Positions 42,806-49,803 of a DNA stretch of 64,000 bases are shown piece by piece. Within the stretch, counting starts at the first letter, position 1. Each line of letters opens with the position of its first letter. The stretch lies in the IMG/VR virus record IMGVR_UViG_3300022074_000013, positions 30,776-94,775 of that record. One strand, given 5' to 3'. Under the pieces are notes generated by a model. It was not told the origin of the DNA, made no database searches, and saw nothing but the letters and a program-made list of their open reading frames with translations. The stretch comes from a virus. The translations under genes were made by a program, and so were the position numbers.

Positions 42806-42813
42806 TATAAATA
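42806..42813 (+). promoter_or_regulatory. Late promoter TATAAATA driving the curli-like cassette
   Basis: 5 nt before the ATG at 42819. Confidence 0.75.
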
Positions 42814-42818
42814 GTCGT

Positions 42819-43112
42819 ATGGACATATTTCAATTTTTAAGTGAAGTCGGAATCCCTATCGGGACTGCGGTAGTGATGGCTTTCTTTATCTATCTGACCT
42901 TAAAATATATTTTTGAGTCTGTACTGGGTCAGATTTCGTCCACCGAAAACATTATAAGCATGCTCGAAACACGAGCACGTGTTATGAATAATGATATTAT
43001 TAAAATAGATTTATTAGTAAGTAGTGCATTAGAACTAGCACCACCAATTGACCGTGTTGCTAGAGCAGAAAACTTTGTTGAGGATGGAAGTATAGACGCC
43101 AGACGAGACTAA
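42819..43112 (+). CDS. Small membrane/coiled-coil protein
   Basis: 'SEVGIPI' TM segment; paralogous to the next gene. Confidence 0.7.
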   Translation: MDIFQFLSEVGIPIGTAVVMAFFIYLTLKYIFESVLGQISSTENIISMLETRARVMNNDIIKIDLLVSSALELAPPIDRVARAENFVEDGSIDARRD

Positions 43113-43116
43113 GACC

Positions 43117-43413
43117 ATGGAAAATCTTGCTCAATTAATCGCAGAGTTTGGGTTTCCAGTTGTAATGTCTATGGGTATGGGATACTTCATATGGTATGTT
43201 TGGAAATTCATTACCATTGAAGTTAAACCAGCACTCGGACGCATGTTTACAGCAAGTATAAAATTGACTGACCAGCTAAGAATGCTAGACCAAGACATGC
43301 TTCGTCTTCAAGAAAAGGTGAACACTGTTTTGGAATATCGTGAGCGCCAAGAACTTTTGCAGGACGCAAAAGAAAAGCAGGCACTCGAAGAGGTAACAAA
43401 TGAAAAGAAGTAA
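43117..43413 (+). CDS. Small membrane/coiled-coil protein (paralogue)
   Basis: 'AEFGFPV' TM segment and 'RMLDQDMLRL'. Confidence 0.7.
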   Translation: MENLAQLIAEFGFPVVMSMGMGYFIWYVWKFITIEVKPALGRMFTASIKLTDQLRMLDQDMLRLQEKVNTVLEYRERQELLQDAKEKQALEEVTNEKK

Positions 43414-43891
43414 AATTTTTGGTATAACATTTGCAATGATAACACTATGTGTCATTTCTCCGACAGTACAATCAGACGAACTGGTACATAAATTTAAAAA
43501 CCCCAGCTTTAGTGGCGTGGGAACTTCTGCCCATTACTTGACAATTGAGAATCAGGAGAAGTCTAGGACAGACAAGATTGCTGAGGACATTAGGGCAGCT
43601 CTTTTGAAACAGCAAAGAGAAGCAGAAAATACAGTTTTAGCCAAATTCATAAGGAATTTGGAATCGAGAATCTATGCTCAGCTATCAAAACAGTTAGTTG
43701 AAAACATGTTCTCAAACGAAGAAGGTGCAAACTACGGAACGTTTACACTGGAAGGAAATACAATTACTTACGAAAGGAAGAACATATGTACTGATGACGG
43801 ACTATGTGACGATTGGATTGTAATGACAATTGTCGGTAGTGACGGAACTACAACAACTATTGAAATTCCAATTGGTACTGGGGGTTTTTAG
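43400..43891 (+). CDS. csgF: Curli assembly protein CsgF-like
   Basis: Signal peptide, then 'ELVHKFKNPSFSG' (CsgF FxNPxFGG motif) and C-terminal 'GTTTTIEIP'. Confidence 0.85.
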   Translation: MKRSKIFGITFAMITLCVISPTVQSDELVHKFKNPSFSGVGTSAHYLTIENQEKSRTDKIAEDIRAALLKQQREAENTVLAKFIRNLESRIYAQLSKQLVENMFSNEEGANYGTFTLEGNTITYERKNICTDDGLCDDWIVMTIVGSDGTTTTIEIPIGTGGF

Positions 43892-47409: not shown

Positions 47410-47411
47410 AT

Positions 47412-47451
47412 AAAAAACCCTCTTATAATTACTCAAACATTGAGGTATAAT
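47412..47451 (+). promoter_or_regulatory. sigma70 'middle-type' promoter
   Basis: AAAAAACCCT-CTTATA-18-TATAAT. Confidence 0.65.
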
Positions 47452-47458
47452 AGTGTAT

Positions 47459-47947
47459 ATGAAACTAATAAATATCTTAGTATTTTGTGCGCTTCTTTTA
47501 GGAGCTACAAAAGTGGAAGGTTTAGAACTAGAGATGGACACTCATTGTCTTGCTCAAAACATATATTTTGAAGCAGGTAATCAACCTCTTGCAGGACAGA
47601 TTGCAGTTGCTAACGTAGTTTTAAATCGTGTAGAACATGATAAATTTCCCGATTCAATTTGTGGAGTAGTTTATCAAACAAAAGAATGGCGAACCTCTTG
47701 GACAGGTAAGACCATTCCTAAATTAGGAATGTGTCAGTTCTCTTGGTTTTGTGATGGCAAATCAGACAAACCAAAAGACAGTAAAACTTGGGCGGAGAGT
47801 TTAAAACTTGCAGACGAAATACTGGACGGTCAGTATTTTGATTTGACAGAAGGTGCAATGTGGTATCATGCGTATTATATACAACCATATTGGAGTCAAC
47901 ATTTAAACGAGACAGTACAAATATCCGCACATATATTCTATAGGTAA
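47459..47947 (+). CDS. Cell wall hydrolase, SleB/Hydrolase_2 family
   Basis: 'CLAQNIYFEA', 'AVANVVLNRV', 'CQFSWFCDG', 'GAMWYHA' and 'HIFY'. Confidence 0.92.
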   Translation: MKLINILVFCALLLGATKVEGLELEMDTHCLAQNIYFEAGNQPLAGQIAVANVVLNRVEHDKFPDSICGVVYQTKEWRTSWTGKTIPKLGMCQFSWFCDGKSDKPKDSKTWAESLKLADEILDGQYFDLTEGAMWYHAYYIQPYWSQHLNETVQISAHIFYR

Positions 47948-47952
47948 AATCT

Positions 47953-49803
47953 ATGTATAAATGGTGGACGGTTTTAATAACCATCGCTCTTCTAGCAGGT
48001 CTTCGTATATCAGACCCGTTTCTCATGGAGTCAATCCGACTCAACTATTTTGACTTTTTACAAACTCAAAAGGAACCTATACAGGTTGACGATATTGTAT
48101 TAGTTGACATAGACGAAAAGACATTAGAAAAATACGGACAGTTCCCATTCCCTAGAGGCGTATGGGCAGACATGATAAATCAAACGTCCGAAACAAATCC
48201 TTCCGTCCTTACTGCTACATTTGCACAACCTGATAGATTCGGGGAAGACGAAGAACTTAGACAAGCATTAGGAAACAGACTTTCCCTTCTTTCTGCCTCA
48301 CCAACTAATCAAAAAGATACTGGAAGTGCACCATATATTGGTATTGCAAAGTTAGGTAAAGGTGACCCTGCAAACTGGTTATACAGTTATGAGGGTATCT
48401 CTAGTCCCATACAACCCCTACAGGAGGCGGTTTACGGTGTAGGTACTGTAAGTGCTTCACCTTCTATAGACGGAACTGTACGTGCAGTTCCACTCGCTGT
48501 CATGGCGAATGGACAGATATATCCTTCTCTCGCACTAGAAACATTGAGAGTTATGAATGGTCAACAGTCCTACAATATAAAGATTACGCCTGAGGTTGGT
48601 GTAGAATGGGTTAGGATAGGTAGACTACCACCATTAACAGTACAACCTAATGCAGACTTTAATATTGCATTTTGGAATCAGTTTGAACGTGTCAGTGCAG
48701 TGGACAAAATCCCTGCAGATAAAATCCTTATATGGGGTCTGACTGCTTCAGGTCTGAGTAATCCAGTTTCAACCCCAATGGGTGCAATGTATCCCCATGA
48801 AGTACAAGCGAATTTAATTCAGACCGTCTTGACAGGATTCCAAATACAACGATTCTACTATCTTGAATTTCTTGAAATTTTTCTTGTTCTGTTTTCGTCT
48901 CTAGTAATACTGGCAATGGTCTACAGACTTCCCACAGTTCTTTCGGGGATAGGGAGTCTAAGTGTCGTTGGATTGCAGGCGTATACGGGGTATTACGTTT
49001 GGATTGAGAACTTGATTTTGCTCGATGTCTTTTACTCATCAGTTGCCTCATTGTTAGTTTTTGGTCACGCATCTTTCAACAAATACTTCACTACGTATCA
49101 ATTGAAAGAACAAATAAAGAAACAGTTCCAAAAATATTTATCGCCTGACATGGTTGAAGAACTACAGAAAAATCCTGAACTATTGAAATTAGGTGGAGAT
49201 AGAAAGGAACTTTCCTTCCTTTTTGCCGACATTGTTGGCTTCACTCCCATAAGCGAAAAGTATATGAAAGAAGATGACCCCGAAGGATTGGTTGAACTTA
49301 TCAACAAATTCCTAGACGCAATGTCAAAAGTCGTTCTTGCACATGGCGGAACCATCGACAAATATATGGGCGATTGTTTGATGGCATTTTGGAATGCCCC
49401 TTTGGATTGTCCAAACCACGCTGAAATGGCGGTTAGAAGTGCTATGGAAATTGAACTGCTTACTGAACAAATGAACAAGGAACTCAAAGAACAGGGATAT
49501 GATTTACCACCCGTTGTAATTGGCACAGGAATAAATACTGGCCCATGCATCGTAGGAAACATGGGAAGTGAGGCAAGATTCGATTATTCAGTTGTCGGTG
49601 ATGCAGTTAATCTAGGTGCACGTCTTGAAGTTCAAACAAGAACATTTGATACACCTATTATCCTTTCACAATACACACTTGACCAATTGCCTGACGATAT
49701 CAAAGTAAAAGAACTTGATAAAATAACTGTAAAAGGTAAAGAAGAACCTGTTACCATTTACGCACCATACTTTAAACGCACAATTAGAAAACTAAAGAAA
49801 TGA
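47953..49803 (+). CDS. CHASE2-domain class III adenylate cyclase
   Basis: CHASE2 'IVLVDIDEKTL...GQFPFPR' and 'TPMGAMYPHEVQAN'; three TM segments; cyclase 'FADIVGFT', 'DKYMGDCLMAFW' and 'DYSVVGDAVNLGARLE'. Confidence 0.93.
   Translation: MYKWWTVLITIALLAGLRISDPFLMESIRLNYFDFLQTQKEPIQVDDIVLVDIDEKTLEKYGQFPFPRGVWADMINQTSETNPSVLTATFAQPDRFGEDEELRQALGNRLSLLSASPTNQKDTGSAPYIGIAKLGKGDPANWLYSYEGISSPIQPLQEAVYGVGTVSASPSIDGTVRAVPLAVMANGQIYPSLALETLRVMNGQQSYNIKITPEVGVEWVRIGRLPPLTVQPNADFNIAFWNQFERVSAVDKIPADKILIWGLTASGLSNPVSTPMGAMYPHEVQANLIQTVLTGFQIQRFYYLEFLEIFLVLFSSLVILAMVYRLPTVLSGIGSLSVVGLQAYTGYYVWIENLILLDVFYSSVASLLVFGHASFNKYFTTYQLKEQIKKQFQKYLSPDMVEELQKNPELLKLGGDRKELSFLFADIVGFTPISEKYMKEDDPEGLVELINKFLDAMSKVVLAHGGTIDKYMGDCLMAFWNAPLDCPNHAEMAVRSAMEIELLTEQMNKELKEQGYDLPPVVIGTGINTGPCIVGNMGSEARFDYSVVGDAVNLGARLEVQTRTFDTPIILSQYTLDQLPDDIKVKELDKITVKGKEEPVTIYAPYFKRTIRKLKK

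What the first reader, a model, noticed from the sequence alone, without database searches (positions are those of the whole stretch)
42806..49803. Phage curli export cassette coupled to FecR and a CHASE2 adenylate cyclase: possible trans-envelope signalling device
Seen: two paralogous membrane proteins, csgF, csgG (intact lipobox), curlin-like protein 1, a FecR-domain protein, a small ORF, curlin-like protein 2, a SleB hydrolase and a CHASE2-3TM-cyclase, inserted between regA and hsp20. The cyclase has both metal Asp residues, the ATP-specifying Lys/Asp and the catalytic Asn/Arg. No csgE, csgC or csgD is recognisable. Established: csgF/csgG have been reported in marine SAR11/OM43-type myoviruses, and FecR-domain/CHASE2-cyclase pairs occur in bacterial envelope signalling. 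Inference: an outer-membrane pore carrying beta-solenoid subunits relays through FecR to an inner-membrane cyclase, giving a cAMP output. It could sense superinfection or contact and tune lysis or host metabolism, rather than simply making biofilm amyloid.
Basis: partly seen in the sequence, partly recalled or inferred. Interest (0 to 1): 0.85.

Follow-up and report, generated by a model that had tools for sequence, protein, structure and literature searches.

The report
Phage curli pore with FecR-CHASE2 cyclase
An uncultured marine T4-like phage carries an intact copy of the already published "viral curli" gene block (outer-membrane pore, two fibre subunits, an exported FecR-fold protein, a membrane adenylate cyclase); it looks like a curli secretion system joined to a bacterial envelope-sensor pair, but its function has never been tested.

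Summary
All ten ORFs lie at 42819-49803 and carry the stated domains, behind a late-promoter motif at 42806.

The gene set is already published for pelagiphages (Wittmers et al. 2022, PMC9599517; HTVC008M; Melnitz). This scan has also noted it on many other genomes.

New here:
- The core genes co-occur without exception in two diverged phage clades: 41 of 41 and 64 of 64 informative loci.
- All six catalytic positions of the cyclase are kept at 29-35% identity. The type is Lys/Ser-Thr (class IIIb), not Lys/Asp.
- In sampled bacteria, 14 of 20 close CHASE2 cyclases have a FecR-domain gene nearby and none has csgG. None of 21 close csgG loci has FecR or CHASE2. The phage block therefore appears to merge two bacterial modules.
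- The phage FecR protein is exported and has no anti-sigma part. It has a conserved acidic tail and a small C-terminal beta domain not matched in the bacterial partners.
- The SleB gene is a clade-specific insert, not a core part.

The proposed relay from pore to FecR to cyclase is plausible but not shown. No cAMP receptor was found in the phage genomes searched.

Verdict: already known object, a sharper testable hypothesis, moderate interest.

The parts
42806..42813 (+). T4-type late promoter motif TATAAATA, 5 nt before the first gene
   Evidence: nine matches in the window, all on the + strand. This one and 50036 bracket the cassette, and none lies inside it. The count is not above chance (11 of 100 shuffles reach 9), so this is a consensus match only. 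Sequence read.
42819..43112 (+). Small membrane protein 1 (97 aa): N-terminal hydrophobic helix followed by a coiled-coil-like tail
   Evidence: phrog_18771, E 4.5e-23. Hydropathy. No Pfam or NCBIfam hit. Present in 77 of 77 relatives that have upstream sequence.
43117..43413 (+). Small membrane protein 2 (98 aa), paralog of the first
   Evidence: phrog_18771, E 2.1e-24, plus a weak hit of its N-terminus to a holin PHROG (9.4e-4). In the phage collection it is found only in HTVC008M and Melnitz.
43400..43891 (+). CsgF homolog with signal peptide and an N-terminal FKNPSFSG motif
   Evidence: Pfam CsgF, E 2.3e-14, covering profile positions 5-132 of 132. dN/dS 0.07-0.10.
43891..44799 (+). CsgG outer-membrane lipoprotein pore
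   Evidence: Pfam CsgG, E 1.7e-53. NCBIfam CsgG, 1.7e-50. Lipobox read. 58-98% identical in 80 viral loci.
44786..45511 (+). Curlin-like secreted repeat protein 1 (ORF opens at 44741; the likely start is the Met before the signal peptide)
   Evidence: Weak CsgA NCBIfam hit, 7e-4. hhalign to curlin 2: probability 98.9%, E 2e-17. Acidic: 37 D/E against 14 K/R.
45471..46604 (+). Exported FecR-fold protein: signal peptide, FecR domain (about 25-213), acidic tail (214-301), small six-strand C-terminal domain (303-377)
   Evidence: Pfam FecR, 2.6e-6. AlphaFold2 model. PupR 6ovk: Z 16.0, rmsd 2.6 over 138 residues. 5ix9: Z 6.2 over 71 of 76 residues. The tail has 25 D/E against 4 K/R.
46604..46744 (+). 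46-aa Q/K/E-rich ORF of doubtful significance
   Evidence: No family hit. Detected only in the closest relatives.
46741..47409 (+). Curlin-repeat secreted protein 2 (ORF opens at GTG 46702)
   Evidence: Pfam Curlin_rpt, 8.8e-7, 29.2 bits against a cut-off of 20.7. CsgA NCBIfam, 1e-4. Present in 41 of 41 clade-1 loci and absent from clade 2.
47453..47947 (+). SleB-type cell-wall hydrolase with signal peptide; an insert, not a core member
   Evidence: Pfam Hydrolase_2, 3.3e-28. PHROG endolysin families. Present in only 5 of 41 informative clade-1 loci. Other relatives carry IscU-like or very basic small genes at this junction.
47953..49803 (+). Membrane adenylate cyclase: TM helix, periplasmic CHASE2, a hydrophobic (TM) block at about residues 300-375, class IIIb cyclase domain
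   Evidence: Pfam CHASE2 3e-32 and Guanylate_cyc 4.4e-19. PDB matches 6fht and 3r5g CyaB. D426, K470, D474, S546, N553 and R557 are invariant and are kept in 55 of 55 sequences including clade 2, where position 546 is T or S.

Best explanation
The cassette is one phage-borne envelope module made by joining two bacterial systems.

Module A is a minimal curli-type (type VIII) secretion system. It has a CsgG lipoprotein pore, CsgF, and two acidic, Sec-exported curlin-repeat subunits that the pore would export to the surface of the infected cell.

Module B is a bacterial-type sensor pair. It has an exported FecR-fold protein and an inner-membrane adenylate cyclase with a periplasmic CHASE2 domain.

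Inferred mechanism:
- The genes are expressed from a late promoter.
- The FecR-fold domain sits in the periplasm and acts on the CHASE2 domain.
- The phage-specific acidic tail and small C-terminal domain of the FecR protein connect it to the CsgG/CsgF/curlin apparatus, either at or through the pore, or on subunits not yet exported.
- The state of fibre export or of the cell surface would then set cAMP synthesis in the cytoplasm.
- The two small membrane paralogs are obligatory partners of unknown role.
- SleB is a later insert.

Shown here: gene content, localisation signals, intact catalytic residues, strict co-conservation, and the separate bacterial origins of the two modules.

Inferred only: contact between FecR and CHASE2, the link to the pore, the direction of signalling, and cAMP as the product.
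For: - Domains and signal peptides are as described.
- Co-occurrence and order hold in 41 of 41 clade-1 loci (tm1, tm2, csgF, csgG, cur1, fecR, cur2, cyc) and in 64 of 64 clade-2 loci (tm, csgF, csgG, cur1, fecR, cyc).
- The cassette sits in at least three genome contexts: after regA, after gp32, and next to tail-fibre genes.
- Every gene has dN/dS between 0.03 and 0.38.
- The catalytic residues are kept in 55 of 55 cyclases at 29-35% identity.
- Fourteen of the 20 closest bacterial CHASE2 cyclases have a Pfam FecR gene within a few kb, and none has csgG, csgF or a curlin gene.
- None of 21 close bacterial csgG loci has a FecR or CHASE2 gene.
- The FecR domain matches the PupR cell-surface signalling domain (Z 16). 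Its first part matches the periplasmic plug domain of an RTX adhesin (5ix9, Z 6.2) (PMC5550230).
- In four bacterial loci the CHASE2 partner is a 1400-1640-aa protein with an N-terminal FecR domain and cadherin-like/Ig-like or Calx-beta repeats. Three have a C-terminal RTX or serralysin-type region (L126, L127, L138); none was detected in the fourth (L139).
- The acidic tail motif is conserved between the two phage clades.
- Buchholz et al. modelled a positively charged CsgGF lumen (PMC9004378).
- An outer-membrane protein feeding CHASE2 cyclases has a precedent in S. meliloti, NsrA with CyaD1/D2/K (PMC13001267).
Against: - There is no evidence of physical contact between any two components.
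- The C-terminal domain of the FecR protein has no detectable curlin homology (hhalign E 0.06-0.27) and no clear fold match (best Z 3.9).
- No cNMP-binding protein is encoded in this record, HTVC008M, Melnitz or a 137-kb relative. The receiver of cAMP is therefore unknown.
- Strict co-occurrence could reflect one ancestral capture followed by block transfer, rather than functional coupling.
- Unrelated genes are tolerated between cur2 and the cyclase gene.
- Wittmers et al. state that FecR and the cyclase are not always seen in viral curli regions.
- The bacterial samples are limited to 301 Pseudomonadota and 401 Alphaproteobacteria genomes.
Confidence: 0.45

Rival explanations
1. The point of the cassette is the surface fibre, for aggregation ('sibling capture'), adhesion, or masking of receptors against superinfection. 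FecR and the cyclase act upstream as regulators of curli production, for example through iron or cAMP control analogous to CRP-cAMP and CsgD in enterobacteria. This is the reading of Wittmers et al. and Zaragoza-Solas et al.
For: - A complete minimal export set is present: CsgG, CsgF and two curlin-type subunits.
- The published interpretation is in PMC9599517 and PMC7029224.
- All genes are under purifying selection.
Against: - The FecR protein has no cytoplasmic anti-sigma domain and no TM helix. No ECF sigma factor or TonB-dependent transducer is in the cassette, so an iron-regulator role is not supported.
- There is no CsgD and no cNMP-binding regulator in the phage genomes.
- Expression seems to be set by a phage late promoter.
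- Buchholz et al. saw no clumping of infected OM43 cells.
Confidence: 0.2
2. The cassette times or executes lysis. CsgG/CsgF acts as a gated outer-membrane pore (the secretin or pinholin idea of Buchholz et al.). The two small membrane paralogs act as holin and antiholin. In this clade the SleB hydrolase acts as the endolysin, and the cyclase senses the state of the envelope.
For: - A late promoter motif lies at the head of the operon.
- Small membrane protein 2 has a weak hit to a holin PHROG (9.4e-4), and the SleB gene hits endolysin PHROGs.
- The hypothesis is published in PMC9004378.
Against: - SleB is present in only 5 of 41 informative clade-1 loci and is absent from HTVC008M, Melnitz and clade 2.
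- The curlin genes are strictly conserved, which a bare pore would not need.
- The holin hit has no significant domain stretch.
- CsgG sits in the outer membrane, where holins do not act.
Confidence: 0.12
3. Two unrelated cargo modules, a curli export set and a FecR/CHASE2 cyclase sensor that manipulates host cAMP on its own, were captured side by side and are simply inherited and transferred together.
For: - The two modules are separate in all bacterial loci examined.
- The cur2-cyclase junction accepts unrelated inserts.
Against: - fecR lies between the two curlin genes rather than next to the cyclase gene.
- No informative locus in either clade has lost one module, even though the cyclases have diverged to about 30% identity and the cassette sits in at least three genome contexts.
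- The FecR protein has gained a conserved tail and C-terminal domain that my profile did not match in most of the bacterial partners (only short weak matches in two).
Confidence: 0.13

Closest known systems
Pelagiphage viral T8SS (curli) region with FecR and adenylate cyclase (Wittmers et al. 2022, PMC9599517; HTVC008M KC465899; Melnitz MZ577097)
   Same: The gene set and order are the same: one or two small membrane proteins (called 'HK' there), csgF, csgG, a curlin, FecR, a second curlin, and the cyclase. The phage type is also the same: T4-like, with gp44, gp62 and regA.
   Different: - The cyclase is only 43% (HTVC008M) and 35% (Melnitz) identical.
- The cassette follows regA here and gp32 there.
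- A SleB-type hydrolase is inserted before the cyclase gene.
- The paper does not mention CHASE2 and reads FecR as an iron regulator.
Bacterial curli system (csgBAC-csgDEFG, type VIII secretion)
   Same: CsgG lipoprotein pore, CsgF, and secreted curlin-repeat subunits. The nearest bacterial CsgG proteins are 39-52% identical and lie next to csgF and curlin genes.
   Different: There is no CsgE, CsgC or CsgD. The cassette adds a FecR protein, a CHASE2 cyclase and two small membrane proteins, none of which is found at 21 bacterial csgG loci.
Bacterial FecR-domain protein with CHASE2 sensor gene pairs (e.g. the LysM-FecR protein with a CHASE2 histidine kinase in Burkholderia and P. aeruginosa, PMC5192318)
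   Same: An exported FecR-domain protein is encoded next to a CHASE2 membrane sensor. This holds for 14 of the 20 closest bacterial CHASE2 cyclases.
   Different: The phage FecR protein carries an acidic tail and a small beta domain, where bacterial partners carry LysM, TPR or adhesin repeats. Its gene is embedded among curlin genes.
FecA-FecR-FecI and PupB-PupR cell-surface signalling
   Same: The FecR fold matches (6ovk Z 16.0, 4m0n Z 14.1). In those systems the domain reads an outer-membrane protein from the periplasm.
   Different: There is no N-terminal anti-sigma domain, no TM anchor, no ECF sigma factor and no TonB-dependent transducer. The output here would be cAMP, not transcription.
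S. meliloti NsrA with the CHASE2 cyclases CyaD1/CyaD2/CyaK and Clr
   Same: An outer-membrane beta-barrel protein is needed for CHASE2 adenylate cyclases to respond to an external signal (PMC13001267).
   Different: NsrA is not a CsgG pore. No FecR link has been shown there: the FecR-domain protein SMc02177 was not required for signal perception (PMC5498481). A CRP-type receiver, Clr, is known there, and none is known here.
Retention (plug) domain of T1SS RTX adhesins (MpIBP RIN, 5ix9; LapA type)
   Same: Residues 24-121 of the phage FecR protein superpose on RIN (Z 6.2, rmsd 1.9, 71 of 76 residues). RIN stays in the periplasm and holds a surface filament in its outer-membrane pore (PMC5550230). 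Four bacterial CHASE2 partners are giant repeat proteins (three with RTX or serralysin-type C-termini) that have a FecR domain at the N-terminus.
   Different: The secretion route differs (TolC-type T1SS against CsgG). Z 6.2 is a middling score for a small beta sandwich.

Membership tests
Pelagiphage viral T8SS-FecR-AC region | Adjacent csgF and csgG followed by a curlin-repeat gene | tested here: met
Pelagiphage viral T8SS-FecR-AC region | FecR-domain gene after the first curlin gene, and an adenylate cyclase gene at the 3' end | tested here: met
   Same order as HTVC008M and Melnitz and as described in PMC9599517.
Pelagiphage viral T8SS-FecR-AC region | One or two small genes upstream of csgF | tested here: met
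   Two phrog_18771 paralogs, present in 77 of 77 relatives.
Canonical bacterial curli operon | CsgG, CsgF and CsgA/B-type subunits | tested here: met
   Curlin_rpt scores 29.2 bits against a cut-off of 20.7 for curlin 2. Curlin 1 is linked only through homology to curlin 2.
Canonical bacterial curli operon | The accessory proteins CsgE and CsgC and the regulator CsgD | tested here: not met
   There is no hit in the cassette. There is no CsgE or CsgC in the 95-kb record, although the record is only about 52% complete. CsgD was checked only through the Pfam scan of the cassette ORFs.
FecR-type anti-sigma factor (cell-surface signalling) | Periplasmic FecR-fold domain | tested here: met
   Pfam 2.6e-6. 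6ovk Z 16.0.
FecR-type anti-sigma factor (cell-surface signalling) | N-terminal cytoplasmic anti-sigma domain and a TM helix | tested here: not met
   The protein starts with a signal-peptide-like helix, and the FecR fold begins at about residue 25.
FecR-type anti-sigma factor (cell-surface signalling) | Partner ECF sigma factor and TonB-dependent transducer nearby | tested here: not met
   No such Pfam family appears in any ORF between 39453 and 50522.
Bacterial FecR-domain/CHASE2 sensor pair | Periplasmic CHASE2 domain between TM segments with a cytoplasmic output domain | tested here: met
   Pfam. Hydropathy.
Bacterial FecR-domain/CHASE2 sensor pair | Exported FecR-domain protein encoded close by | tested here: met
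   The FecR gene ends 1.3 kb upstream of the cyclase gene here and is directly adjacent in clade 2. The bacterial pattern is 14 of 20 loci.
Bacterial FecR-domain/CHASE2 sensor pair | Physical or functional interaction of the two proteins | not testable with these tools
   No multimer prediction or assay was available.
Class III adenylate cyclase, subclass IIIb | Two metal-binding Asp, substrate Lys, Thr/Ser at the second specificity position, and transition-state Asn and Arg | tested here: met
   D426, D474, K470, S546, N553 and R557 are invariant in 12 sequences. S546 aligns to the Thr of CyaB 3r5g. Clade 2 has T in 47 and S in 7 at that position (8 S with the window's own), and the other five positions are kept in 55 of 55. 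Assigning these positions to their roles rests on my knowledge of class III cyclases.
Class III adenylate cyclase, subclass IIIb | cAMP synthesis | not testable with these tools
   Needs an enzyme assay or cya complementation.
Histidine kinase (the label given to the small upstream proteins in PMC9599517) | HisKA and HATPase_c domains | tested here: not met
   The proteins are 97 and 98 aa long. They have no Pfam or NCBIfam hit at E 0.01 and match only phrog_18771, of unknown function.
Phage lysis cassette | Holin and endolysin as conserved members | tested here: inconclusive
   The holin PHROG hit (9.4e-4) has no significant stretch, and SleB hits endolysin PHROGs. SleB is in only 5 of 41 relatives.

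The most novel reading that the evidence does not exclude
The phage installs a complete surface-to-cytoplasm sensor in a host that has no curli genes. The exported FecR-fold protein replaces the missing CsgE. Its acidic tail caps or threads the positively charged CsgG/CsgF channel, and its FecR domain acts as a periplasmic stopper bound to CHASE2. Fibre growth, pulling on the fibre, or contact at the cell surface would then be converted into cAMP that times late infection. The same logic (a filament held in an outer-membrane pore by a FecR-domain plug that reports to a CHASE2 cyclase) would also apply to the giant FecR-RTX adhesins found beside bacterial CHASE2 cyclases.
Probability: 0.25. Interest if true: 0.8.

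Novelty: already known. Interest (0 to 1): 0.45.

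Why it matters
- Phages with this block infect SAR11 and OM43, which are among the most abundant marine bacteria.
- The published survey found viral curli proteins at all 65 ocean viromes examined, at about 0.1% of assembled viral proteins (PMC9599517).
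- The hosts have no curli genes, so infection gives the cell a new envelope machine. Its purpose has been an open question since 2013-2020.
- Reading FecR as the partner of a CHASE2 sensor, rather than as an iron regulator, turns that question into concrete tests. The same holds for reading the block as a merger of two bacterial modules.
- It also points to an unstudied bacterial arrangement: FecR-headed RTX adhesins beside CHASE2 cyclases.

Tried and rejected
- **FecR C-terminal domain as a curlin repeat.** hhalign against both curlin families gave E 0.06-0.27. Only the last 14 residues resemble a curlin strand. A separate model (pLDDT 80.5) found no fold above Z 3.9 among 48,161 chains. The idea is dropped. 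All three exported proteins do end in a similar hydrophobic-x-hydrophobic-x-Q motif, which stays unexplained.
- **Large protein search with the FecR alignment.** It gave 5715 hits, and the best 120 were all of the phage type. It said nothing about bacteria.
- **Genome-collection scan with the FecR alignment.** It returned only seven MAG contigs at 50-61% identity. These are most likely phage contigs binned into MAGs.
- **Gene neighbourhoods through the look-up of encoding contigs.** I used the genome search and the fetch from genomes instead.
- **cNMP-binding domain search.** There was no match in this record, HTVC008M, Melnitz or a 137-kb relative. Host genomes were not searched.
- **Sigma-70 promoter and terminator scans of the cassette.** The counts were not above shuffled controls.
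- **ESM Atlas search on small membrane protein 1.** It returned only unnamed viral clusters.
- **The histidine kinase label for the small proteins.** It is not supported.

Full report
**What is there.** The window is part of a 94,775-bp IMG/VR virus record. It comes from a T4-like phage: the clamp loader genes gp44 and gp62 and the regulator gene regA lie just upstream.

On the + strand, a T4-type late promoter motif sits at 42806-42813, 5 nt before the first start codon. Ten tightly packed ORFs follow:
- two 97/98-aa paralogous membrane proteins, both matching phrog_18771
- CsgF
- CsgG, with a lipobox
- a curlin-like protein with no Pfam hit
- a FecR-domain protein
- a 46-aa ORF
- a Curlin_rpt protein
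- a SleB-type hydrolase
- a CHASE2 plus class III cyclase protein

The two curlin-like proteins are homologous to each other (hhalign probability 98.9%). Both give weak CsgA hits. No CsgE or CsgC is present.

**The cyclase.** In 12 diverse relatives the metal-binding Asp residues (426, 474), Lys470, Ser546, Asn553 and Arg557 are invariant. Ser546 aligns with the Thr of P. aeruginosa CyaB (3r5g).

In a second phage clade the cyclases are only 29-35% identical to this one. There the position is Thr in 47 and Ser in 7 sequences (8 Ser counting the window's own). The other five positions are unchanged in all 55 sequences, counting the window's own. The enzyme looks competent and is probably specific for ATP.

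**Is it one unit?** A scan of IMG/VR with CsgG gave 160 relatives, of which 80 loci were kept.
- All 41 loci that reach 5.5 kb beyond the csgG start carry curlin 1, FecR, curlin 2 and the cyclase, in the same order.
- All 77 loci with upstream sequence carry both small membrane genes and csgF.
- About half of these loci have regA upstream and half do not. In HTVC008M and Melnitz the block follows gp32.

A second clade was reached through a CsgG representative that is 56% identical.
- It has more than 597 relatives.
- Its contigs reach 58 kb, and the block lies next to tail-fibre genes.
- In 64 of 64 informative loci it has one or two small membrane genes, then csgF, csgG, one curlin, FecR and the cyclase.

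In the collection of 50,697 phage records, the small membrane protein, CsgG and the full-length cyclase occur in the same six records. All nine genes tested (all but the 46-aa ORF) have dN/dS between 0.03 and 0.38.

SleB is found in only 5 of 41 loci. Other relatives carry IscU-like or very basic small genes at the same junction. SleB is therefore an insert, not a core part.

**Where the parts come from.**
- In a sample of 301 Pseudomonadota and 401 Alphaproteobacteria genomes, 21 bacterial loci had a CsgG 39-52% identical to this one. csgF was detected beside 9 of them and curlin-like genes beside 5. None has a FecR-type or CHASE2 gene within 10 kb.
- In the same Pfam-confirmed set, 14 of the 20 closest bacterial CHASE2 cyclases have a FecR-domain gene within a few kb, often directly adjacent. 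None has csgG, csgF or a curlin gene.
- FecR-CHASE2 pairing is also reported for histidine kinases in Burkholderia and P. aeruginosa (PMC5192318).
- No paper in the library mentions both CHASE2 and CsgG.

The phage block is therefore a merger of two modules that are separate in the bacteria sampled. The fecR gene is placed among the curlin genes.

**The FecR protein.** An AlphaFold2 model shows four parts:
- a signal-peptide-like helix
- a beta-rich FecR domain at 25-213, with pLDDT about 83
- a low-confidence acidic stretch at 214-301
- a six-strand domain at 303-377

Residues 55-215 match the cell-surface signalling domain of the anti-sigma regulator PupR (6ovk; Z 16.0, rmsd 2.6, 138 residues). 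Residues 24-121 match 5ix9 (Z 6.2, rmsd 1.9, 71 of 76 residues). 5ix9 is RIN, the periplasmic plug that holds the RTX adhesin MpIBP in its TolC-type pore (PMC5550230).

The protein has no anti-sigma domain and no TM helix. No ECF sigma factor or TonB-dependent transducer lies nearby. It is therefore not an iron-citrate regulator of the classical kind.

The acidic stretch has 25 D/E against 4 K/R. It carries a motif conserved between the two phage clades.

My profile matched the bacterial partners almost only in the FecR domain. Their other parts vary: TPR repeats, or, in four loci, 1400-1640-aa proteins with cadherin-like/Ig-like or Calx-beta repeats. Three of the four also have a C-terminal RTX or serralysin-type region. 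In one locus an ABC transporter gene lies next door.

I read the FecR domain as an adaptor that ties different envelope structures to CHASE2 sensors. That reading is an inference.

**Mechanism.** My best explanation is that CsgG/CsgF export the two acidic curlins late in infection. The exported FecR-fold protein would then couple the state of that apparatus to the CHASE2 domain and so set cAMP synthesis.

Points in favour:
- the strict co-conservation
- the position of fecR among the curlin genes
- the phage-specific tail on the FecR protein
- the positively charged CsgGF lumen modelled by Buchholz et al.
- the NsrA-CHASE2 cyclase precedent in S. meliloti

Points against:
- no contact between components has been shown
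- the C-terminal domain is neither curlin-like nor of a recognisable fold
- no cAMP receptor is encoded by this record, HTVC008M, Melnitz or a 137-kb relative
- one ancestral capture followed by block transfer could explain the co-occurrence

I give this explanation 0.45. The rivals are fibre production with FecR and the cyclase as regulators (0.2), lysis timing (0.12), and two independent cargo modules (0.13).

**Comparison with what is known.**
- Zaragoza-Solas et al. 2020 and Buchholz et al. 2022 described csgFG in these phages. Neither paper mentions the cyclase, FecR or CHASE2.
- Wittmers et al. 2022 (PMC9599517) described the whole set: 'HK', CsgF, CsgG, CsgA/B, FecR, a second CsgA/B and the adenylate cyclase.
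  - They found it in both podovirus and myovirus pelagiphages.
  - They noted that FecR, HK and the cyclase are not part of bacterial T8SS operons.
  - They argued for selection on the whole gene set and found transcripts in the ocean.
  - They do not mention CHASE2, and they read FecR as an iron regulator.
  - The 'HK' label does not fit the 97-aa proteins here.
- Earlier notes of this scan report the same block on many other genomes, with the same verdict.

The object is already known.

Noticed in passing
L126 14171-18721, L127 11062-15981, L138 13918-18183, L139 11257-15609 (bacterial loci): These are giant proteins of 1400-1640 aa, each with an N-terminal FecR domain and cadherin-like/Ig-like or Calx-beta repeats. 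Three have a C-terminal RTX or serralysin-type region; none was detected in L139. They lie on the same strand beside CHASE2 adenylate cyclases, and in L126 an ABC transporter gene lies between them. They may be a bacterial system in which a surface adhesin is coupled to cAMP signalling.
   Followed up: partly
window 42806-42821: The late promoter motif TATAAATA ends 5 nt before the ATG of the first cassette gene. The transcript would then be leaderless or nearly so, or the true start lies downstream.
   Followed up: no
L029 11878-12360, L040 11241-11699, L054 6750-7145, L058 12077-12475: An IscU/NifU-like gene is inserted between curlin 2 and the cyclase gene in several relatives. L048 and L064 carry runs of very basic small ORFs at the same junction. 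This junction is a hot spot for inserts.
   Followed up: partly
L084-L090 (genome contigs): Contigs of 5-142 kb that carry the phage-type cassette at 50-61% identity are binned into MAGs named Synechococcus, Sphingobacteriales, Rhodobacterales, Saprospirales and Planctomycetaceae. These are most likely phage contigs placed in the wrong bins.
   Followed up: no
G001:C7:19487-21328: The cyclase gene on the phage-like contig of the Rhodobacterales MAG has one in-frame TAA. This is either a broken copy or an assembly error.
   Followed up: no
window 40400-40930: An AhpC/TSA peroxiredoxin gene sits between the clamp loader genes gp44 and gp62.
   Followed up: no
window 45471-46604, 44786-45511, 46741-47409: The FecR protein and both curlins end in a similar C-terminal motif (hydrophobic-x-hydrophobic-x-Q followed by one to five residues). 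The motif is kept in the FecR protein of both phage clades, and its meaning is unknown.
   Followed up: partly
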